In this document: one piece after another, positions 2,675 through 55,504 of the stretch
Layout: each line of letters begins with the position of its first letter
Numbering within the stretch: position 1 is the first letter of the stretch
Origin: an uncultured Candidatus Saccharibacteria bacterium
GTDB taxonomy: Bacteria; Patescibacteriota; Minisyncoccia; Phycocordibacterales; CAIZLB01
Assembly (NCBI GenBank): GCA_964550955.1
Contig: CAZKAF010000001.1
Location: 393,920 to 457,919, forward strand
Reading direction: 5' to 3'
Length of the DNA stretch: 64,000 nt
Made by a program: the position numbers and the translations under genes
Notes under the pieces: model-generated
Database searches by the model: none
The model's input: the letters and a program-made list of their open reading frames with translations, nothing else
Told to the model about the DNA's origin: nothing

Positions 2675-4042
2675 CTACTCCGCCACCTCAAGCTTCCGCG
2701 CCACCCATTGGGTAAGCGGAGGCTGTATTACGAGCGTAAGAATGATTACCCACATGCCGACGGATATGACCATGTTCGCGACGCCGTCATTCCCTATGAC
2801 CGAAAGGCCGCTGTATGCGACTTGGATAAGCAGGACGGCCGGAATCACGCCAGTTTCCCGAACCCATGACATGAACAGCAGCTCCTTGACCGTGAACTTG
2901 CTCTTGCCGAACAGGAAGCCGAGCGACGCGAAAACTGAAATCGGCCTGATGACGAATATGAAAACAAGCCCTGCCAAGATTCCGAACAGCGCGTAGTCCA
3001 AAAGAACCTTGACGTTCACTAGGGCTCCGAGAACGATGAAGACGCTCGGCTTCGCTATGCCCTCGATAAGCTGATTAAAGAAGGTCTCGGTCTTGTGAAC
3101 CCTCTCATTCAGCACGACCAAAAGCCCCGCGATGAAGCTGGCCAGATATCCGCTTCCTTCAAACAGCACCGCGAACGCGTAGGCCATGATGGGAATGGCG
3201 ATAAAGAAGCCGATGTCCGCATGACATTCGGCGCGCATGAGCCTTTGCCTGACGAAGAACCGTATCGCGTAGAACCCCATGACGCCGACTGAGGCGCCGA
3301 TAAAGATTTCCTTAAGGAGAAAATTCATTGATTCAACGGACAGCAACGCGCTGAATCCGCTCGAAAGCGAAGTGAATTCCCCTCCCCTCGTCAGGAATGT
3401 TATGAAAGCTACGGTTACGAGCGTTCCGACCACGTCAGTAAGCGCGCTTTCTGAAACCACGATGTCCTTGATTCGGTCTTTCTTGAACTTCAGATCCTTA
3501 AGCACCGGAATAATCGCTGCCGGATCGGTTGAAGCGAGTATGGCGCCCAAAAGGAGCGCCACTGAGATGCTCATGCCGAAGCCCGTCGCGACGCCAAGCG
3601 AGAACAGGCCTTGCGCGAACAGGAAGGTCGAAATGCCGAGACCGACAAACGAAAGGAGCAATGTCGGCAATACGATCTTGCGGAAGCTCGTAAACGATAT
3701 TTCGAGGCCTCCGCCAAACAAGATGTACACGGCTGAAATGGTAACGATCATGTTCAGTATGACCGAATTCTCGACTAACGGCTGCAGCAAATTATTCATG
3801 CTTATGCCGATGAACAGCGCGACGAGAAATGACGGAAAGATGGTGCCCCTTGAAAGCGAATGAGAAATTGTCCCTAACAAGAACATTCCGCCTACGAGAA
3901 AGAGCGGAATGACGGATGACAGTTCGTGCGAATGAGGAAGCGTTTCCGAAAACTGCACGAACAGCGCGTTAAAGACGGCAAAGCAGCCCACGCTCATGAT
4001 GAGCAGGAACAGGGGCGAATGATGCTTCAATTTTAAAAACAT
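2675..4042 (-). CDS. Cation:proton antiporter (CPA1/NhaP-type Na+/H+ exchanger)
   Basis: 455-aa polytopic membrane protein with the ILASTDPAAIIPVLKDL...SESALTDVVG motif typical of Na+/H+ exchanger family proteins. Confidence 0.65.
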   Translation of the reverse strand: MFLKLKHHSPLFLLIMSVGCFAVFNALFVQFSETLPHSHELSSVIPLFLVGGMFLLGTISHSLSRGTIFPSFLVALFIGISMNNLLQPLVENSVILNMIVTISAVYILFGGGLEISFTSFRKIVLPTLLLSFVGLGISTFLFAQGLFSLGVATGFGMSISVALLLGAILASTDPAAIIPVLKDLKFKKDRIKDIVVSESALTDVVGTLVTVAFITFLTRGGEFTSLSSGFSALLSVESMNFLLKEIFIGASVGVMGFYAIRFFVRQRLMRAECHADIGFFIAIPIMAYAFAVLFEGSGYLASFIAGLLVVLNERVHKTETFFNQLIEGIAKPSVFIVLGALVNVKVLLDYALFGILAGLVFIFVIRPISVFASLGFLFGKSKFTVKELLFMSWVRETGVIPAVLLIQVAYSGLSVIGNDGVANMVISVGMWVIILTLVIQPPLTQWVARKLEVAE

Positions 4043-48992: not shown

Positions 48993-49703
48993 TTAATGGT
49001 TAAATATTCTCCTGAAAAATGACCCCTTGCTGCTTGGCAGCGGGCCGTGCTTGTTAGCTTTCGGATTTCCCTTTTTGGTCATCAGGACGACGAACAGGAT
49101 GGCCAAGGCGACGTATAGCGCCCAATAGCCGATATCGAACATGTTGCCTGCCGGCGGAATGAAGAAGGCGAGAAACAGAAGGCTGAGCACGCCGGGCAAT
49201 TCGAGATTGTGGAGCCTCCTCGTTATGAGCGAGAGCATCATGACCGTCACGGGAGCCAGGACGAAGGGAATGGCCATTATGAAAATGCCCTCCTCGTCGC
49301 GGCTTATGAACTTCATCATCGATTTATAGAACCCCGGAGTCGAGAGCGACAGGAGAAGCGAGCCCAGCGAAAGGACGACGTACCCTATGCCGAAGAAGAA
49401 AAGGAAGCCGAGAATGAAATCTTTCCTCCGCAGCCGGCCGGAAAAGAGCCCGTGCTGGATTTTTCCGATGGCGGAATCGTGATAGCGGTCCAGATGGAGC
49501 ACCTTGCTCAGGGGAGGAAGGAAGCCGTTATGCGCGACGATGTCCTGATGCACTTCCCGGTAGCTTCTCTTGATGGACTCGAATCCTTCCCGTATGTGCT
49601 CCTCGGAGAATCCCGCGCGATGAAGCATGCTCTTTATGTCGTGAGGATGAACCGCGTGCTCAAGCTTCATTTTTATGAAAGAGACTATTCCGTGATTGCT
49701 CAT
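48993..49703 (-). CDS. Membrane protein, DUF805-like
   Basis: The RLRRKDFILGFLFFFGIGYVV region resembles DUF805. Start MSNHGIV follows extended -10 TGGTATTAT. Confidence 0.4.
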   Translation of the reverse strand: MSNHGIVSFIKMKLEHAVHPHDIKSMLHRAGFSEEHIREGFESIKRSYREVHQDIVAHNGFLPPLSKVLHLDRYHDSAIGKIQHGLFSGRLRRKDFILGFLFFFGIGYVVLSLGSLLLSLSTPGFYKSMMKFISRDEEGIFIMAIPFVLAPVTVMMLSLITRRLHNLELPGVLSLLFLAFFIPPAGNMFDIGYWALYVALAILFVVLMTKKGNPKANKHGPLPSSKGSFFRRIFNH

Positions 49704-49723
49704 AGTGTTAGTATAATACCAAA

Positions 49724-50224
49724 CTAGCTCTCCAACAATGAGGTTATGTACGCGTAATGCTTTTCCGAGACCGGCTGGATGGAAAGACGGCTCCCCTTTT
49801 GGCACACCATCATGTCGGCAAGCTTCGGATCTTTCTTTATTTCCGCCAAGGGCAGAGGACGCTTGAATTTTTTCACGAAAGCGAAATCGACAAGGAACCA
49901 GACGGAATCGTATTCGACGCCATTTTGTTCCGCCTCGGCCTTGCGCTTGGCAGACTTCGGATCATAATGCTCGTCCTTGGGATCAAGGGCCGTCGGATCG
50001 GGATACGGCTTGGTAACGACTTTTGCCAGCCCGTATATGCCATTCGGAAATTCCTTCGAAGCGGAGCTTGAATGGTAAAAGAAAGCCAGGTCTCCGACTT
50101 TCATCTGATTTTTCATGTAATTTCGAGCTTGGAAATTCCTCACGCCGGACCACGGGGTTCTCTTGTCCCTCTTAAGGTCGTCAATCGAGTAGCAATCCCC
50201 TTCGGACTTTATGAGCCAGTGCAT
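49724..50224 (-). CDS. EVE (PUA-like) domain protein
   Basis: MHWLIKSEGDCYSIDDLKRDKRTPWSGVRNFQARNYMKNQMKVGDLAFFYHS matches the EVE-domain N-terminal consensus. Confidence 0.8.
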   Translation of the reverse strand: MHWLIKSEGDCYSIDDLKRDKRTPWSGVRNFQARNYMKNQMKVGDLAFFYHSSSASKEFPNGIYGLAKVVTKPYPDPTALDPKDEHYDPKSAKRKAEAEQNGVEYDSVWFLVDFAFVKKFKRPLPLAEIKKDPKLADMMVCQKGSRLSIQPVSEKHYAYITSLLES

Positions 50225-50230
50225 GCGCTT

Positions 50231-51658
50231 TTATTTTTCAAGGATAACGAAGCTTAGAATCTGGACCGAGTTCGATTCGCCTATCGCGAAGACGACCGCG
50301 GCAGTATAGGAAATGCGACCGTTTGTATAGTCCACAAGCGCCCGATCGACGCCGTCAAACGAGACGTTGGTTACCCTGAAGACAGGATTCCCCTTCTTCG
50401 GCGACAGCGTATTTATGTTCTGAACGATATGCCGAGTGACAGCATCCCTGACTTCTTTCGAGAGAGTGCTTACCGAAGTCGAGGTAGAAGGACGAGCGCC
50501 TGCAGGAAGGCTGGAGCCGTTCGTGGAAGTGCCGGAACTTGTCGGCGGAGTGACAACAGGACGGTTCGCCGCAGGAGTCATGCCCAGATAATAATACGCA
50601 TAGCCTCCTCCCGCGAGCAGGAGAACGAACACTATGCTGATTGCAATCCAAATCTTCTTCATGGCGCCTCCCGACTGATGAACCACGGTCCTCTGGGAAG
50701 CGTTCGGAGTGGTATATGGGGTACTTGGCGGAGCATAAACCGGAGGGGATACAGGCGGGACATTCGGAGAGGATCCGTACGGCGCATTTTGTCCGGACGG
50801 CGCGGCGTATGAGGAATATTGACCAGGACTGCTTGGCCTGGCTGCCGGAGCCGCAGACGACATGCCGCTAAAGCCGACAGGGGCATACCCTGATCCGAAA
50901 GAAGCGCTTGCAGGTTCGCCCGCATAAGGGGTCGCGGAAGGAGCCTGATTTCCTGCCGGAGCAGCGGAAGGAGCAGTGGGCTGCGCCGGCGATGCGGGAT
51001 TTGCATTCATGCTCGTTGGCGCCGGAGAAAATCCGGACGGAGCGGCAGGAGACGGACTTTGCGCGGAAGCGGATGCGATGCTTGAAAAAGATTCCGCGCT
51101 TTGCATCGTACGCACGGTTTCAGACGAAGGCGACACGACGGAAGAATAAGAAACGACCGGAGGCAGGTCAGAAACAGCATTTGAAAAATTCGAGACGGGA
51201 GACGGAGCGGGCGCCGATGCTGGCGCGGCGGACGCTCGGACTGGAGAAAACTCGGGTACGGGCGGCGGTGCAACAGGTGCGCGCATGGGCGAGAATTCGG
51301 GAGCCGGCGAGGACGATGACGGCGAAGCGCTTTTCGGCATTCCGATAAACTGAGGATTTTCGCTTGGGCCAGATGCGCCGGGAACGGCACTTGAGGCATT
51401 CGCAAAGCCGGGATTTGCCGAGGGGTTGGCGGCAGGCATGCTTGCCCCAGAATTATTCATGATGTCGCCGAAGCTGACCGGAGAAGACGTAACGTCCAAT
51501 GATCCGGGCAAGTTCGTCGGCGGCACGGCCTGCGACGGGACAGAGGCGCCCATGCTGTTATTTTGAAAATTTCCGCCGGCAGGATTGCCCGATCCGTACG
51601 CCGGATTGCCGTTGGAAGAATTATTAACTGAACCATCTGGAATAATGTTTTTGTCCAT
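50231..51658 (-). CDS. Bitopic membrane protein: about 330-aa Pro/Ser/Ala-rich disordered N-terminal (predicted cytoplasmic) region, one TM helix, about 125-aa C-terminal extracytoplasmic domain
   Basis: Low-complexity N-terminus, TM helix KKIWIAISIVFVLLLAGGGYAYYYL, globular C-terminus. Start lies 21 nt after the lexA stop on the same strand. Confidence 0.5.
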   Translation of the reverse strand: MDKNIIPDGSVNNSSNGNPAYGSGNPAGGNFQNNSMGASVPSQAVPPTNLPGSLDVTSSPVSFGDIMNNSGASMPAANPSANPGFANASSAVPGASGPSENPQFIGMPKSASPSSSSPAPEFSPMRAPVAPPPVPEFSPVRASAAPASAPAPSPVSNFSNAVSDLPPVVSYSSVVSPSSETVRTMQSAESFSSIASASAQSPSPAAPSGFSPAPTSMNANPASPAQPTAPSAAPAGNQAPSATPYAGEPASASFGSGYAPVGFSGMSSAAPAARPSSPGQYSSYAAPSGQNAPYGSSPNVPPVSPPVYAPPSTPYTTPNASQRTVVHQSGGAMKKIWIAISIVFVLLLAGGGYAYYYLGMTPAANRPVVTPPTSSGTSTNGSSLPAGARPSTSTSVSTLSKEVRDAVTRHIVQNINTLSPKKGNPVFRVTNVSFDGVDRALVDYTNGRISYTAAVVFAIGESNSVQILSFVILEK

Positions 51659-51679
51659 ATGCCTATAAGTATACCACTT

Positions 51680-52255
51680 TTAAATTTTTCGGATAACAGC
51701 CTTAACAACAGCCGCTATCTTCAGGTCATACTCAGGATAGATGTTCTTGAAATTTTTATTTGCAGGCTCGAGATACGGCCGACCCTTCTTGTCCACGCGA
51801 TAATATTTCATGGTCCAGCCGCCATCAACTTCGGCAATGACGATGTCGCCGATTTTGGCCTGATGCCCTTTTTCAACCAAGACCATGTCCCCTTCGGCGA
51901 TATGCGCCTCTATCATTGATTCCCCTTTCACTTCCAGCATGAAGGTAGAGCCCTTAACGTCTCCCAGCAGCATGTCCTCGATGCTTGTCATGTCGAGCAT
52001 TTCTTCCTCCGCAGTTGTCGGCATGCCGGCTTCGACAAGTCCGAGCACAGGTATCTCGCCCGCAAGCCTCTGCGGGATGAGTCGGCCCCGAGAGTCTTTT
52101 TCGAATATGCCATCCTCGACGAGCTTGTTCAGCAATTTATAAACCGCGTTCTTTGACTTGAAGCCGACAAGCTTCATTATTTCGTTATAGCCGGGAACGC
52201 GACGGTTCTGCTTGTAGAAATTAACGATTTTCTGCTTGTAGTCCTGATAGTTCAT
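51680..52255 (-). CDS. lexA: LexA repressor (S24 peptidase)
   Basis: N-terminal winged-helix DNA-binding domain, cleavage region, catalytic Ser (GESMIEA) and Lys (TMKYY) motifs. Confidence 0.85.
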   Translation of the reverse strand: MNYQDYKQKIVNFYKQNRRVPGYNEIMKLVGFKSKNAVYKLLNKLVEDGIFEKDSRGRLIPQRLAGEIPVLGLVEAGMPTTAEEEMLDMTSIEDMLLGDVKGSTFMLEVKGESMIEAHIAEGDMVLVEKGHQAKIGDIVIAEVDGGWTMKYYRVDKKGRPYLEPANKNFKNIYPEYDLKIAAVVKAVIRKI

Positions 52256-52275
52256 TTATATATAGTGATTCTATC

Positions 52276-52473
52276 TTAGAACAGGAACGAAGCCAATGAA
52301 AAGGTTCGGGCGAGCGAAGCTTCGCTTTCAAGCCTTCGAAGCTGCGACACGAGATCCTTGTGCTTCTTCGCTTCCCGATCATAACTTTCCCCTCGCACGA
52401 TCTTGTGATCGATCTTGCTGTTAAGCTTTCCGAGCTCCCTTCTAATCGCGAACATAAGTGTCATTTTTCTCAT
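52276..52473 (-). CDS. Small ORF between the SOS promoter and lexA (65 aa)
   Basis: ORF only. No homology recognised. May be part of a long leader rather than a gene. Confidence 0.2.
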   Translation of the reverse strand: MRKMTLMFAIRRELGKLNSKIDHKIVRGESYDREAKKHKDLVSQLRRLESEASLARTFSLASFLF

Positions 52474-52544
52474 GGTTTTTTTATTTAATTTATTGATTGC
52501 TAATTGTTTTTTTACTGCGGTTCCTAATTTCCGTATGTATTTTT

Positions 52545-52573
52545 AGTATAGGTGAACCATAGTTCACTGTCAA
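52545..52573 (-). promoter_or_regulatory. SOS promoter: TTGACA (-35), 17-nt spacer carrying a LexA box, TATACT (-10)
   Basis: Minus-strand reading: TTGACA GTGAACTATGGTTCACC TATACT. The box at 52552-52567 (GTGAACCATAGTTCAC) is a perfect GAAC-N4-GTTC palindrome of the Cheo-box type. Confidence 0.6.
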
Positions 52574-52631
52574 TAAATTCCCTATCGAAACCTGTGTATA
52601 ACTTTAATGAGCTTGGACGCTTAGGCTGATC

Positions 52632-54113
52632 TTATGTTCGACTTGAGAGAAAGTTTATGATTCTTTCATCTACCTGAACGTCTCTCGGCGACAGCGGCGT
52701 GAGCAGCGTGATGCCTTCCATGCTTCTCACTCGGCTGAGCGCGACATATGCCTGGCCGTGAGCGAACGTGCCCTTGCCGAAATCGATGACGGCCTTGTCA
52801 AACGTCTTGCCTTGGCTCTTGTGAATGGTTACTGCCCAGGCCAGCTTGACCGGAAGCTGAACGTACTTGCCCACGACTTCCGACGAGACGGCATTGCTCA
52901 TGTCGTCGTATTCGTATCGGACCGACTCCCAGCTCTCGCTCTCCACCTCTTCAGTCTTGCCGTTCTCAAGCAATACGTGTATCGAGGTCGAGCCCATCTT
53001 CTTGACGACTCCGATGTCGCCGTTCACCCACCGGCCCACCGCGTCATTCTTTACCATCATGACCTGTGCGCCGGTCTTCAGGACAAGGGCGCTGGGGACC
53101 GGCGTATTTTTCTGATCGAACGTGCCGACGAGAGACCCCTTGTACGTCTTTGACGGAGAGTCTATTTTCTTGAGTTCTTTCTCGTTGATGGAGTCAGCCA
53201 TGGCATTCGTCGTAACCAGATGAATAACCCTGGCAGCAGAATTCCCAACATCGTTCTTGCCGGAAAAGCCGTTCGCGCTTTTGGAGCCCGCCTTGCTTCC
53301 GCCGAACTTGCCGGACCTCGAACCCGCAGATTCTTCCGCATCCAGGCTGATGATAGTTTCAGACCCGTCGCCGTCGAAGACGTCTATGCCGTCGTACTCG
53401 CCGCCGTAGCCCCCCTCGGAATACTGAGGCGCCCCCCGGGCATTTTTTTTGTCGAACGAGCCGTTCGTGCAGCAGATAGAATTTATCTTATATATGTGGT
53501 TCGGCTCTATCTGTCCGATGCGCATCTTGTCCAGGATGCTGATGAATTCGTGATCGCTTTGCCGATATACTTCGGTCAGCTCGGCGACCTGGAACTCGCC
53601 CCTCTGATACGCTTTCGAATCGAAAAAATAAGGACTCTCATACTTGCTCGTGAACAGGTATTGTTCGTGGGGAGAAACGATGGGCGGAAGCTGAAACAGG
53701 TCGCCGATGACCACGATCTGCACCCCTCCGAACGGCTCCCCGGGAGTCGGTCCGTTGAGCCTCAGGAACTTTTCAATGCAATCGAACAGGTCCGCGCGAA
53801 CCATGGATATCTCGTCGATGACAAGAATGTCTATCTTCTTGTACAGCTTCGCGAGCTCCGCATTCGTCGTGACATGCATGTCCTGCTCGCTTACTCCGAT
53901 CTTGAATTTGAAAAAGCTGTGAATGGTCTGCCCCTTCACGTTCAGCGCCGCGATGCCCGTCGGAGCGACGACAGCGACGTTCTTTTTCGTCGTATCCCTG
54001 AAATGGCTGAGAAGGGTCGACTTGCCAGTGCCGGCCCGGCCCGTAATGAACAGATTCTGCTTCGATCCTTCTAAAATTTCAATGACATCTTGAGCTTCCG
54101 CGGATAATTTCAT
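52632..54113 (-). CDS. Pif1/RecD-family 5'-3' DNA helicase
   Basis: Walker A ITGRAGTGKSTLL, VVAPTGIAA, Walker B VIDEISMV, and C-terminal VTIHKSQGKTFD...AYVALSRVRS. A G/S-rich insertion is present. Preceded by TTTTTCTGCTACTATGTAGCC-ATG. Confidence 0.75.
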   Translation of the reverse strand: MKLSAEAQDVIEILEGSKQNLFITGRAGTGKSTLLSHFRDTTKKNVAVVAPTGIAALNVKGQTIHSFFKFKIGVSEQDMHVTTNAELAKLYKKIDILVIDEISMVRADLFDCIEKFLRLNGPTPGEPFGGVQIVVIGDLFQLPPIVSPHEQYLFTSKYESPYFFDSKAYQRGEFQVAELTEVYRQSDHEFISILDKMRIGQIEPNHIYKINSICCTNGSFDKKNARGAPQYSEGGYGGEYDGIDVFDGDGSETIISLDAEESAGSRSGKFGGSKAGSKSANGFSGKNDVGNSAARVIHLVTTNAMADSINEKELKKIDSPSKTYKGSLVGTFDQKNTPVPSALVLKTGAQVMMVKNDAVGRWVNGDIGVVKKMGSTSIHVLLENGKTEEVESESWESVRYEYDDMSNAVSSEVVGKYVQLPVKLAWAVTIHKSQGKTFDKAVIDFGKGTFAHGQAYVALSRVRSMEGITLLTPLSPRDVQVDERIINFLSSRT

Positions 54114-54223: not shown

Positions 54224-55504
54224 TTAAAGACCTTTCCTTTGCCTCTGCATTTCCTTGAATCTTTCCGCGATATTCGCGCTCATGCCCGCGCTTGCGGCAT
54301 TGCTGCCGGCGCTTCCCCTTAATGCAGCCGAGGACTCTTTGGCTCCGTAATTCTTATGAAGCACGTATGCCGCGAAGAGGCTCCAGAGCGCAAGAGCGAA
54401 CGTGAAAAGCGTCATCTTGAGGCCGAAGCTGATGCCGGTTGCCGGAATCTGATTGAGAAATACTCCTGACACCGGCTGACCGACCGTCGGAGCGTACGTC
54501 GTAGGCTGGACATACGTATATGTCGGCTGAACATATTGCGACTGGTACGGATAGTAGTAGTTATGGTCATAATAATTTGACCCGTAGTACGTCGAGCCGT
54601 ATCCATAGTATGAAGTTACCGTCACAAGAAGGCTCGTGCACGCATAGCTGAGGGATGTCGAGCAGATGCTGAACGAGACGGTTCCCGGATTCGTAGCGGT
54701 GACCTGGACGGTATTGTTGTTGACGATGCTCGCGGACGCGATGTTCGCTCCCGGGCTGTTTGAAATGTAATAAGAACCGGATCCGCCGTAAATCGTGACG
54801 GACTGAACCTGGCCCTGCTGAAGCGTGACGGAACTCTGGCTCAAAGTCACCGATGACGAGCCTCCCCACCACGTGCTGTTCACCGTCACGAAAAGATTGG
54901 CGCAGCCGCCGGACGAAGCCTGGGAGCAGACGCTGAAAGTCATCGATCCTTGAGACACGCCGGTTACCGAAATCGCGTTTCCGACAATGTTTGCCGTCGC
55001 GACATTCGAATTAGAATTTGAAGAAATATAATAGCTGCCGCTGCCGCCATATATCTGAGTCGAGGCGGTCTGGTTCGAGTTCACGCTCAGCGAGGACTGG
55101 CCGAAGTAAATTTGCCCGCCCGTCGATCCGCCTGATGACGGCCACGTGGCGCTCATGGATTGGAAGCCGTTCACGACGACGTAGACGATGCTGCCGCTTT
55201 GGATATTGTATTGGCCCGAAGAAACCGTAGTCGAAAATGATCCTGCATAGTTTGTCGTGCCGATAGTGCCCGCATAAACGGCGTTGCCGGAACCGGAAGG
55301 ATAATAATAAAGAAGGACGCTCGCATTCGGATCGGCGTTCACTCCGATATGGACCTGATTGCCGCCGACAGATGACACGGAAAGATGCGCCGTGGCTGCG
55401 GCAGCCTGGCCCGGAACGGCCACGGCCGCCAAGGCGACTGAAAATAACCCTATGAATAAGGATGCGACGAGACCAGCCGTGAAAAGGTTTTTTATGTTCT
55501 TCAT
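54224..55504 (-). CDS. Secreted surface protein with tandem roughly 90-aa Ig-like repeats and a C-terminal (I)PATG sorting-signal-like anchor (paralog of 34674-35999 at the C-terminus)
   Basis: Signal peptide, two repeats beginning IYGGSGSYYIS, Y-rich region, then PVSGVFLNQIPATGISFGLKMTLF...AAYVL, a basic stop-transfer and a 44-aa tail. Confidence 0.6.
   Translation of the reverse strand: MKNIKNLFTAGLVASLFIGLFSVALAAVAVPGQAAAATAHLSVSSVGGNQVHIGVNADPNASVLLYYYPSGSGNAVYAGTIGTTNYAGSFSTTVSSGQYNIQSGSIVYVVVNGFQSMSATWPSSGGSTGGQIYFGQSSLSVNSNQTASTQIYGGSGSYYISSNSNSNVATANIVGNAISVTGVSQGSMTFSVCSQASSGGCANLFVTVNSTWWGGSSSVTLSQSSVTLQQGQVQSVTIYGGSGSYYISNSPGANIASASIVNNNTVQVTATNPGTVSFSICSTSLSYACTSLLVTVTSYYGYGSTYYGSNYYDHNYYYPYQSQYVQPTYTYVQPTTYAPTVGQPVSGVFLNQIPATGISFGLKMTLFTFALALWSLFAAYVLHKNYGAKESSAALRGSAGSNAASAGMSANIAERFKEMQRQRKGL

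What the first reader, a model, noticed from the sequence alone, without database searches (positions are those of the whole stretch)
51680..52573. lexA operon driven by a promoter whose 17-nt spacer is a perfect SOS (Cheo-type) box
On the minus strand, TTGACA-GTGAACTATGGTTCACC-TATACT places a perfect GAAC-N4-GTTC palindrome exactly in the -35/-10 spacer. This is an ideal repression geometry. It is followed by a 65-aa ORF (or a leader), then lexA 20 nt later. The upstream Pif1/RecD helicase and the downstream membrane protein sit in the same co-directional array. I found only this one box in 64 kb, so it is probably autoregulatory, and it defines which genes this organism places under SOS control.
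Basis: partly seen in the sequence, partly recalled or inferred. Interest (0 to 1): 0.7.

Follow-up and report, generated by a model that had tools for sequence, protein, structure and literature searches.

The report
Self-repressed lexA operon promoter, Paceibacteria
This is the self-repressed promoter of the DNA-damage (SOS) repressor gene lexA in an uncultured Paceibacterota bacterium: ordinary in principle, but in this lineage it also carries a conserved DnaA-box-like site and co-transcribes an uncharacterised 65-residue protein.

Summary
On the minus strand, TTGACA(52573-52568)-GTGAACTATGGTTCACC-TATACT(52550-52545) is an 11/12 sigma-70 promoter. Its 17-nt spacer is filled by the 16-bp palindrome GTGAAC-N4-GTTCAC. 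The gene 51680-52255 is a genuine LexA.

The same layout, -35 / palindrome / -10, precedes lexA in nearly all Patescibacteria loci examined. The palindrome's flavour co-varies with the LexA recognition helix, so LexA autoregulation is well supported by inference.

- There are three literal GAAC-N4-GTTC matches in the window, not one. The other two lie inside coding genes and lack the flanks.
- The 65-aa ORF is a real, conserved gene, not a leader. It is a helical hairpin with 376 cluster representatives and no annotation, and it is linked to lexA in both gene orders.
- The Pif1 helicase lies upstream of the promoter and is not conserved there.
- The internal TAGAAT element is not conserved.

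One new feature: a DnaA-box-like 9-mer (TTATACACA, 52601-52593; TTATCCACA in relatives) sits upstream of the -35. It is present in 23 of 29 lexA promoters against 0.6% of control windows, in two spacing classes 10 bp apart.

The Patescibacteria SOS network has been published (Sánchez-Osuna et al. 2017), but I could not read that paper. I judge this a known kind of system with new lineage-specific additions.

The parts
52593..52601 (-). DnaA-box-like 9-mer TTATACACA (matches TTATNCACA), 19 nt upstream of the -35 hexamer
   Evidence: It is the only TTATNCACA in the 64-kb window. The homologous position in relatives reads TTATCCACA. 23 of 29 lexA promoters have at most 1 mismatch, against 0.6% of control windows (binomial 2e-46). 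Binding by DnaA is inferred, not shown.
52568..52573 (-). -35 hexamer TTGACA
   Evidence: TTGAC is conserved in the alignment of 18 promoters.
52552..52567 (.). LexA operator (SOS box), the 16-bp palindrome GTGAACTATGGTTCAC. It occupies 16 of the 17 spacer positions, starting directly after the -35 and ending 1 nt before the -10.
   Evidence: PWM score 25.9 bits, unique in the window. The same element sits in the same place upstream of lexA in relatives. It co-varies with the LexA recognition helix.
52545..52550 (-). -10 hexamer TATACT
   Evidence: TATA(A/C)T is conserved 0-1 nt after the operator in relatives.
52474..52538 (-). Predicted 5' untranslated region. The transcription start is inferred about 7 nt after the -10, within a conserved ACATAC.
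   Evidence: The position is inferred from promoter geometry. The ACAT block is conserved. No Rfam family matches 51500-52800.
52276..52473 (-). First gene of the operon: a 65-aa basic (pI 10.4) helical-hairpin protein of an unannotated, Paceibacterota-restricted family
   Evidence: 49 close homologues, 336 by profile and 376 cluster representatives at 50% identity, all stand-alone at 48-147 aa. Codon-position entropy is 1.28/0.95/1.65. AlphaFold2 pLDDT is 90.8, with two helices. There is no Pfam, PDB or PHROG match. It is found next to lexA in both gene orders.
51680..52255 (-). lexA (191 aa): N-terminal winged helix-turn-helix, Ala76-Gly77 cleavage site, Ser113/Lys150 dyad
   Evidence: TIGR00498 scores 111.9 bits against a cutoff of 110.95. 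Peptidase_S24 E = 2e-22. A76, G77, S113 and K150 are invariant in 33 homologues. The best PDB matches are LexA repressors.
50231..51658 (-). 475-aa low-complexity membrane protein, 21 nt after lexA; possibly co-transcribed
   Evidence: A variable protein of 340-405 aa occupies this slot in close relatives only. No intrinsic terminator was found between the genes.
49724..50224 (-). EVE-domain protein, 6 nt after the previous gene; possibly co-transcribed
   Evidence: Pfam EVE E = 2e-49. It lies downstream of lexA in close relatives, but in none of the 49 more distant lexA-containing loci with at least 2.5 kb of downstream sequence.
48993..49703 (-). DUF805 membrane protein (first ATG taken as the start), the next gene in the same-strand array
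   Evidence: Pfam DUF805. It is syntenic in close relatives.

Best explanation
This is the autoregulated promoter of a small SOS operon in a Paceibacterota (Parcubacteria) genome.

A near-consensus sigma-70 promoter (TTGACA-17-TATACT) has its spacer filled by a 16-bp palindrome, GTGAAC-N4-GTTCAC. A LexA dimer bound there would lie between and against both hexamers and exclude RNA polymerase. That is an inference from geometry and from how LexA operators work elsewhere.

After DNA damage, RecA-stimulated self-cleavage of LexA would free the promoter. The Ala76-Gly77 bond and the Ser113/Lys150 dyad are present; the cleavage itself is inferred. The transcript encodes first a conserved 65-residue helical-hairpin protein and then LexA. 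New LexA then shuts the promoter again.

Transcription may run on into the membrane-protein, EVE and DUF805 genes. This is not shown, and it is conserved only in close relatives.

A conserved 9-mer identical to the DnaA-box consensus sits 9 or 19 nt upstream of the -35, that is, on one face of the helix. I infer, with a probability of about 0.6, that DnaA binds there. That would add a replication-status input to the DNA-damage input.

The role of the small protein is unknown. My best guess, at about 0.3, is an SOS effector such as a division or replication checkpoint protein. A modulator of LexA or RecA is the other possibility.
For: The sequence and geometry are as stated, and the promoter is among 7 near-consensus promoters in the window against 0.3 expected.

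LexA identity rests on TIGR00498 above its cutoff, the S24 domain, the invariant A76-G77, S113 and K150, and the closest solved structures all being LexA.

Footprinting:
- 24 of 30 Patescibacteria genome loci carry an exact GAAC-N4-GTTC between a TTGAC-like and a TATAAT-like hexamer upstream of lexA.
- L014 and L021 carry GTGTAC-N4-GTACAC in the same place.
- The same holds in close relatives and in the alignment of 18 promoters.
- It is the only strong site in each locus, and essentially the only one in 0.93 Mb of neighbourhoods.

Evidence that LexA is the binder comes from co-variation with the recognition helix:
- GTGAAC/GTTCAC goes with KSKNAVYKL.
- (T/C)AGAAC/GTTCTA goes with K(S/T)K(S/A)AVxY.
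- GTGTAC/GTACAC goes with KSKNAAVKI or KSKTSAVRI.
- One genome carries two lexA paralogues, each preceded by its own flavour.

The small gene is supported, and by the swapped order promoter-lexA-small in L090, L164 and L185.

The DnaA-like box is supported as follows:
- It is unique in the window.
- 10 of 22 strict boxes in 203 kb lie 10-28 nt upstream of the operator.
- 23 of 29 promoters have at most 1 mismatch, against 0.6% of controls.
- 100 of 120 metagenome hits to the composite pattern are followed by the small gene, lexA or both. Their spacings peak at 14-16 nt and 24-25 nt.
- Non-Patescibacteria lexA loci are at chance.
- DnaA and LexA jointly control uvrB, recN and dinJ in E. coli (PMC6015884).
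Against: Nothing here is experimental: no binding, no transcript ends, no induction data.

- The Pfam LexA_DNA_bind hit is below its cutoff (17.4 against 23.7 bits), and TIGR00498 is passed by only 1 bit.
- No terminator separates the helicase from the promoter, so read-through could contribute to lexA expression.
- DnaA's sequence preference in Patescibacteria is not established. No dnaA gene or oriC-type box cluster lay in the sequence I held, so I could not check it.
- The link between box quality and presence of the small gene (18/18 against 5/13) is not corrected for shared ancestry.
- The small protein has no transmembrane segment or LysM domain, unlike the known lexA-adjacent division inhibitors.
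Confidence: 0.85

Rival explanations
1. The promoter and operator control only the small gene. lexA is mainly expressed from the internal TTGGCT-17-TAGAAT element (52296-52268) or by read-through from the helicase.
For: A 9/12 promoter-like match sits just upstream of the lexA ATG. No terminator-like hairpin lies between the helicase stop (52632) and the promoter.
Against: 9/12 matches occur at the chance rate (6 found against 4.6 expected). The small-gene/lexA junction is completely unconserved among relatives at 75-88% LexA identity. In loci without the small gene, the operator-bearing promoter sits about 30 nt before lexA itself. In three loci lexA comes first after the same promoter. The upstream gene differs between relatives.
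Confidence: 0.08
2. The palindrome is the site of some other dimeric regulator, and its resemblance to a LexA box is coincidental.
For: The bare GAAC-N4-GTTC 12-mer is not rare (3 in the window; 17 of 100 shuffles reach that number). No binding data exist.
Against: The full 16-mer is unique. It is always in front of lexA. Three operator flavours track three versions of the LexA recognition helix, including two paralogues in one genome.
Confidence: 0.03
3. The 65-codon ORF is a non-coding leader or attenuator rather than a protein gene.
For: It has no Shine-Dalgarno sequence and no annotation. It is short and lies between the promoter and lexA.
Against: There are 376 cluster representatives of conserved length. 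Third-position variability exceeds first and second. Polar residues are invariant. The AlphaFold2 model is confident. There is no Rfam hit. The gene also occurs downstream of lexA. lexA itself lacks a Shine-Dalgarno sequence here.
Confidence: 0.02
4. The TTATCCACA-like element is not a DnaA site. It would be a promoter-proximal site for another factor (possibly the small protein itself) or a lineage-specific upstream promoter element.
For: DnaA specificity in Patescibacteria is untested, and I could not examine an oriC from these genomes. A single box, rather than a pair or cluster, is present in most loci. Box quality tracks presence of the small gene.
Against: It is identical to the DnaA-box consensus TTATCCACA (PMC8203912; TT(A/T)TNCACA in PMC6015884). 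It is asymmetric, as expected for a site bound by a monomer. It is not A/T-rich, as UP elements are. It is not a general promoter feature, with one copy in 64 kb that holds 7 strong promoters.
Confidence: 0.3

Closest known systems
LexA autoregulation through a Gram-positive-type (Cheo) SOS box, as in Bacillus subtilis lexA/dinR and recA. The Patescibacteria SOS network was described by Sánchez-Osuna, Barbé and Erill, Environ Microbiol 2017;19:3465 (reference seen; the paper itself is not held).
   Same: An S24 self-cleaving repressor; a palindromic GAAC-N4-GTTC core; the operator overlaps the core promoter of its own gene; negative feedback.
   Different: The flanks are GT...AC rather than C...G. 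There is a single operator placed exactly in the spacer. lexA is the second gene, behind a small unknown gene. A DnaA-like box lies upstream. I could not check whether the 2017 paper reports the small gene or the DnaA-like box.
Joint DnaA and LexA control of SOS promoters in Escherichia coli (uvrB, recN, dinJ; PMC6015884)
   Same: DnaA box(es) and LexA box(es) occur in one promoter region. DnaA is proposed there as a second controller of SOS genes.
   Different: In E. coli the boxes overlap or are scattered over three promoters, and lexA itself is not reported as a target. Here a single consensus box sits at a fixed helical phase upstream of the -35 of the lexA operon and is conserved across a phylum-level group. 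DnaA binding is untested here.
Small SOS-induced cell-division inhibitor genes next to lexA in Gram-positive bacteria (yneA, sosA, chiZ/Rv2719c, divS; PMC6851548)
   Same: A small, poorly conserved gene sits directly beside lexA and is under a LexA operator.
   Different: Those genes are divergently transcribed from lexA. They encode membrane-anchored proteins, several with a LysM domain. This gene is co-transcribed with lexA, is predicted to be a soluble two-helix hairpin with only a short hydrophobic C-terminus, and has no sequence similarity to them.
Sda of Bacillus subtilis, a small checkpoint protein whose promoter DnaA binds directly (PMC8203912); that it is 46 residues long and a helical hairpin is from memory.
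   Same: A small helical-hairpin protein expressed from a promoter carrying DnaA boxes.
   Different: There is no sequence similarity. Sda targets sporulation kinases that Patescibacteria lack. This is an analogy only.

Membership tests
LexA repressor (TIGR00498 / Peptidase S24) | C-terminal S24 self-cleaving domain with a Ser-Lys dyad | tested here: met
   Peptidase_S24 E = 2.3e-22 over residues 69-184. Ser113 (GESM) and Lys150 are invariant in 33 homologues.
LexA repressor (TIGR00498 / Peptidase S24) | Ala-Gly cleavage site in the linker | tested here: met
   VEA76-G77 is invariant in alignment A1.
LexA repressor (TIGR00498 / Peptidase S24) | N-terminal LexA-type winged helix-turn-helix | tested here: inconclusive
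   Pfam LexA_DNA_bind scores 17.4 bits against a cutoff of 23.7. The full-length equivalog TIGR00498 passes, 111.9 against 110.95. Thermotoga LexA 3K2Z aligns from residue 11.
LexA repressor (TIGR00498 / Peptidase S24) | Binds a palindromic operator in its own promoter | tested here: met
   This is comparative evidence only: the operator is conserved upstream of lexA and co-varies with the recognition helix. Physical binding is not testable here.
LexA repressor (TIGR00498 / Peptidase S24) | RecA-stimulated cleavage after DNA damage | not testable with these tools
   No recA gene was identified among the window genes that I annotated.
Cheo box / Gram-positive SOS box (CGAAC-N4-GTTCG) | GAAC-N4-GTTC inverted repeat | tested here: met
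   Exact match at 52554-52565.
Cheo box / Gram-positive SOS box (CGAAC-N4-GTTCG) | C/G flanks (CGAAC...GTTCG) | tested here: not met
   The flanks are GTGAAC...GTTCAC in the window and in most relatives. A minority subfamily has TAGAAC...GTTCTA. This is a variant of the motif. The Cheo consensus is quoted from my own knowledge.
DnaA box | 9-mer matching TTATNCACA / TTATCCACA | tested here: met
   TTATACACA at 52601-52593. TTATCCACA at the same place in relatives. The consensus is taken from PMC8203912 and PMC6015884.
DnaA box | Bound by DnaA of the organism | not testable with these tools
   No dnaA gene or oriC-type cluster lay in the held sequence to check the lineage's own consensus.
lexA-adjacent SOS cell-division inhibitors (YneA, SosA, ChiZ, DivS) | Small gene directly next to lexA under a LexA operator | tested here: met
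   The synteny rule is taken from PMC6851548.
lexA-adjacent SOS cell-division inhibitors (YneA, SosA, ChiZ, DivS) | Transmembrane anchor, with or without a LysM domain | tested here: not met
   The AlphaFold2 model is two long helices (residues 3-27 and 32-64) with no membrane-spanning stretch. There is no Pfam domain. Only the last 5-15 residues or so are hydrophobic.
lexA-adjacent SOS cell-division inhibitors (YneA, SosA, ChiZ, DivS) | Blocks division when over-produced | not testable with these tools
   This needs an experiment.

The most novel reading that the evidence does not exclude
In Paceibacterota the lexA promoter is a two-input switch. A high-affinity DnaA box at a fixed helical phase upstream of the -35 reports replication-initiator status, and a LexA operator in the spacer reports DNA damage. 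The first product of the operon, a lineage-specific 65-residue helical hairpin always linked to lexA, would be the effector of this checkpoint, for example a division or replication inhibitor, or a partner that tunes LexA or RecA. That would be a previously undescribed wiring of the SOS system in a very large uncultured group with minimal genomes.
Probability: 0.35. Interest if true: 0.7.

Novelty: new variant of a known kind. Interest (0 to 1): 0.5.

Why it matters
Patescibacteria are a huge, almost wholly uncultured group with reduced genomes. Very little is known about how they regulate anything.

A promoter that can be read directly from sequence gives a concrete handle on their transcriptional logic. 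Here the -35, operator and -10 are conserved across hundreds of metagenomic contigs.

The LexA part confirms that the SOS circuit works there in the ordinary way.

The two additions are specific and testable. A DnaA-type box is tied to lexA, and an unannotated small protein is co-transcribed with the repressor. If they hold up, they would show that this lineage couples replication status and DNA damage at a single promoter. They would also give a function to a protein family of several hundred clusters that currently has none.

Tried and rejected
- **Reading the 2017 Patescibacteria SOS paper.** It is not held in the library. What it reports about motif and regulon is therefore quoted only as a reference.
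- **Defining the regulon.** Only one operator is present in the window. There are essentially none besides the lexA promoters in 0.93 Mb of related neighbourhoods. The rest of the 696-kb source contig could not be fetched.
- **Finding a function for the small protein.** Pfam gave only sub-threshold coiled-coil noise from TSC22 and Dad3. The PDB profile search gave nothing below E = 1.5. Foldseek against the PDB returned only generic helical hairpins with E above 0.6. PHROGs gave nothing. An exhaustive HMMER search found no domain fusions.
- **Checking the lineage's own DnaA-box consensus at an origin.** No dnaA gene and no box cluster lay in the held loci.
- **Testing whether the EVE gene is a general partner of lexA.** It is so only in close relatives, and in none of 49 lexA-containing loci from the wider metagenome set.
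- **Looking for an RNA element in the leader.** There is no Rfam hit.
- **Identifying the source organism by cluster look-up.** No name was given. NCBI calls the small gene as 62 aa on a 696-kb contig.
- **Rejected readings.** The helicase as part of the operon, because it lies upstream of the promoter and its synteny varies. The oriC reading of the DnaA-like box, because it is a single box and is not next to dnaA.
Full report
**1. What is in the sequence**

Read on the minus strand, the intergenic region between the helicase gene and the 65-codon ORF runs as follows:

...AAAG TTATACACA GGTTTCGATAGGGAATTTA TTGACA GTGAACTATGGTTCACC TATACT AAAAATACATACGG...

The -35 hexamer is at 52573-52568, the 17-nt spacer at 52567-52551 and the -10 hexamer at 52550-52545. 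The scan tool scores this 11 of 12, the best in 49-55 kb.

Across the whole window there are 7 promoters at 11/12 or better, against 0.3 expected from Markov-resampled sequence. The organism therefore uses canonical sigma-70 promoters, and this is one of its strongest.

The spacer holds the 16-bp palindrome GTGAACTATGGTTCAC (52567-52552). Seven of its eight positions pair.

- a 65-aa ORF at 52276-52473;
- a 20-nt gap;
- a 191-aa ORF at 51680-52255;
- a 475-aa ORF, an EVE-domain ORF and further same-strand genes downstream;
- a PIF1-family helicase (Pfam E = 3e-33) upstream at 52632-54113.

**2. Is it more than chance?**

The bare GAAC-N4-GTTC is not. It occurs three times in the window, and 17 of 100 shuffles do as well.

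The other two copies lie inside an Hsp20 gene and an RNase R/II gene and lack the outer GT/AC. With a weight matrix built from 24 related lexA promoters, the site at 52551-52568 scores 25.9 bits. The runner-up scores 10.7, which shuffled sequence reaches. A 16-mer matrix gives 24.1 bits, with nothing else above 10.

**3. The repressor gene**

The 191-aa protein passes the NCBIfam LexA equivalog, though narrowly (111.9 against 110.95 bits). It has a clear S24 domain.

Its Pfam LexA DNA-binding hit is below threshold. Even so, solved LexA structures align from residue 11 to the end.

In an alignment of 33 homologues, Ala76-Gly77, Ser113 and Lys150 are invariant. These are the cleavage bond and the catalytic dyad.

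Its relatives are annotated as Candidatus Paceibacterota, Taylorbacteria or Pacebacteria, and one 100%-identical copy lies on a 696-kb contig. The window is therefore a Paceibacterota (Parcubacteria) genome.

**4. Footprinting**

A scan of one genome per species returned 80 lexA loci, about 30 of them Patescibacteria. The results were:
- In 24 of those 30, an exact GAAC-N4-GTTC lies between a TTGAC-like and a TATA(A/C)T-like hexamer upstream of lexA.
- Two more, L014 and L021, carry GTGTAC-N4-GTACAC in the same place.
- The promoter is about 30 nt before lexA, or 250-450 nt before it when a small ORF intervenes.
- Close relatives fetched by exact protein look-up show the same layout.
- It is the only strong site in each locus.
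- In 0.93 Mb of Patescibacteria sequence around lexA, only two further 16-mer palindromes turned up. One of them is in front of a second lexA paralogue.
- The alignment of 18 promoters shows conserved blocks separated by unconserved sequence. The blocks are a 9-mer, TTGAC, the operator arms, TATAMT and ACAT at the expected start.

**5. Is LexA the binder?**

Operator flavour tracks the LexA recognition helix:

| Operator | Recognition helix |
|---|---|
| GTGAAC...GTTCAC | (F/Y)KSKNAVYKL |
| (T/C)AGAAC...GTTCTA | YK(S/T)K(S/A)AVxY |
| GTGTAC...GTACAC | KSKNAAVKI or KSKTSAVRI |

Locus L002 holds two lexA paralogues, one of each of the first two kinds, each preceded by its own flavour. This is the strongest computational evidence available that the palindrome is the LexA operator. 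Binding itself remains untested.

**6. The 65-aa ORF is a gene**

It has 49 close homologues, 336 by profile and 376 representatives at 50% identity in an exhaustive HMMER search. All are stand-alone, 48-147 aa long and without annotation.

Over 84 distinct genes, nucleotide entropy by codon position is 1.28, 0.95 and 1.65. That is the pattern of coding sequence.

The conserved core is E-x4-N-x2-ID-x-KI-x2-G-x2-Y-x2-EARRHK-x-L, followed by a variable tail that ends in hydrophobic residues. AlphaFold2 gives a confident two-helix hairpin (pLDDT 90.8).

No function could be attached to it.

It sits immediately upstream of lexA in 13 of 27 genome loci. Among 120 metagenome hits, 86 carried both the small gene and lexA downstream of the promoter. 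In three of these, L090, L164 and L185, the order is reversed to promoter-lexA-small gene. That argues for a functional link rather than mere adjacency.

**7. What is and is not part of the unit**

The gene upstream of the promoter varies between relatives: Pif1 helicase, UvrD helicase, a peptidoglycan-binding protein or others. The helicase is therefore a neighbour. A Pif1 gene does recur near lexA in several arrangements.

Downstream, a variable low-complexity membrane protein, EVE and DUF805 follow lexA with gaps of a few bases in close relatives. In the wider set the EVE gene is absent from all 49 lexA-containing loci with enough downstream sequence.

No intrinsic terminator is predicted within the array, so co-transcription is possible but unproven.

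**8.

Nineteen nucleotides upstream of the -35 lies TTATACACA (52601-52593). It is the only TTATNCACA in the window. The homologous position in relatives reads TTATCCACA, the DnaA-box consensus (PMC8203912; PMC6015884).

The evidence for conservation:
- In 27 genome loci, 10 of the 22 strict boxes found in 203 kb lie 10-28 nt upstream of the operator on the gene strand.
- In an unbiased set of 29 lexA promoters, 23 have at most one mismatch within 44 nt upstream, against 0.6% of 9,984 control windows (binomial 2e-46).
- The rest carry degenerate versions at the same place.
- lexA loci from other phyla are at the chance level, 2 of 52.
100 of them carry the small gene, lexA or both downstream, and most of the rest are truncated.
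- The distance from the box to the operator is 13-17 nt in 101 contigs and 24-25 nt in 9. The window and four relatives are in the 25-26 nt class.

Two classes 10 bp apart, with unconserved sequence between them, point to a requirement for one face of the helix.

Box quality is higher where the small gene is present (18/18 against 5/13 with at most one mismatch, Fisher 1.6e-4). This is not corrected for shared ancestry.

I infer that DnaA binds here. I could not check the lineage's own origin boxes, so I put this at about 0.6.

**9. Mechanism**

What is shown: the sequence elements, their conservation, and the co-variation with the LexA helix.

What is inferred from established LexA biology:
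- a LexA dimer on the spacer excludes RNA polymerase;
- RecA-stimulated self-cleavage relieves this;
- the operon then makes the small protein and fresh LexA, which closes the loop.

What is inferred with less confidence:
- DnaA at -54 to -46, or one helical turn further upstream as in this window, modulates the promoter. The sign of the effect is unknown.
- The small protein is an SOS effector or a modulator of LexA or RecA.

The closest analogies for the small protein are the small lexA-adjacent division inhibitors of Gram-positive bacteria (PMC6851548) and Sda, whose promoter DnaA binds directly. The protein fails the structural criteria of the former, and it shares no sequence with either.

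**10. Novelty and verdict**

LexA autoregulation through a GAAC-N4-GTTC-type box is textbook. A comparative study of the Patescibacteria SOS network exists (Sánchez-Osuna et al. 2017; cited, not readable here). As submitted, the finding is correct but ordinary.

The conserved small gene and the DnaA-like box are, as far as I could search, not described. No paper in the library pairs 'DnaA box' with 'lexA promoter' or with Patescibacteria.

I rate the whole as a new variant of a known kind, with interest 0.5.

Noticed in passing
window 52593-52601 (minus strand); L001-L016, L081-L087, L088-L207: A DnaA-box-like 9-mer (TTATCCACA; TTATACACA in the window) is conserved upstream of the -35 of Patescibacteria lexA promoters, in two spacing classes 10 bp apart. 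It is absent from lexA promoters of other phyla.
   Followed up: yes
L090, L164, L185 (metagenome contigs): The same composite promoter is followed by lexA first and the small helical-hairpin gene second, the reverse of the order in the window.
   Followed up: partly
L002 3710 and 8387; L011, L023, L024, L031; L014, L021: There are three operator flavours: GTGAAC/GTTCAC, (T/C)AGAAC/GTTCTA and GTGTAC/GTACAC. Each goes with a distinct LexA recognition helix. L002 carries two lexA paralogues with different flavours, which suggests two non-cross-talking repressors in one cell.
   Followed up: partly
L177 (metagenome contig): A complete DnaA-box / -35 / GTGAAC-N4-GTTCAC / -10 promoter is followed not by lexA but by a DNA methyltransferase with a DPPY motif. 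It is a possible further SOS target, or a rearrangement.
   Followed up: no
window 52632-54113; L005, L081, L084 and three of the metagenome loci: A Pif1/RecD-type helicase recurs near lexA in different arrangements: directly upstream, one gene removed, or downstream of lexA. It has no operator of its own in the window.
   Followed up: partly
window 48993-50224; L001, L002, L081, L082, L084, L086: EVE-domain and DUF805 genes follow lexA with gaps of a few bases in close relatives. In L086 EVE starts 2 nt after the lexA stop. This linkage disappears in more distant Paceibacterota.
   Followed up: partly
L081 about 3557-3600 and the small-gene/lexA junction at about 3890-4000: The closest long relative has two tandem DnaA-like boxes (TTATGCACAgTTATACACA). 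It also has an inverted repeat of about 45 nt (ctatttaattctga...tcagaattaaatag) between the small gene and lexA, which is absent from the window.
   Followed up: no
window 52474-52480 and 52256-52275: Neither the small gene nor lexA is preceded by a recognisable Shine-Dalgarno sequence. The small gene has three in-frame ATGs (M1, M4, M7), and NCBI calls it from M4 as 62 aa.
   Followed up: no
window 17606, 26528, 36037, 36121, 39424, 46870 (position of the first base of each -35 hexamer): Six further near-consensus TTGACA-16/17-TATAAT promoters (11/12 or better) are present, against 0.3 promoters of that quality expected by chance in the whole window. This organism's promoters can be read directly from sequence.
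   Followed up: no
window 54224-55504: A 426-aa Ser/Gly/Thr-rich repetitive protein with an N-terminal signal-like segment and a C-terminal hydrophobic segment has no Pfam match. It looks like a cell-surface protein.
   Followed up: no
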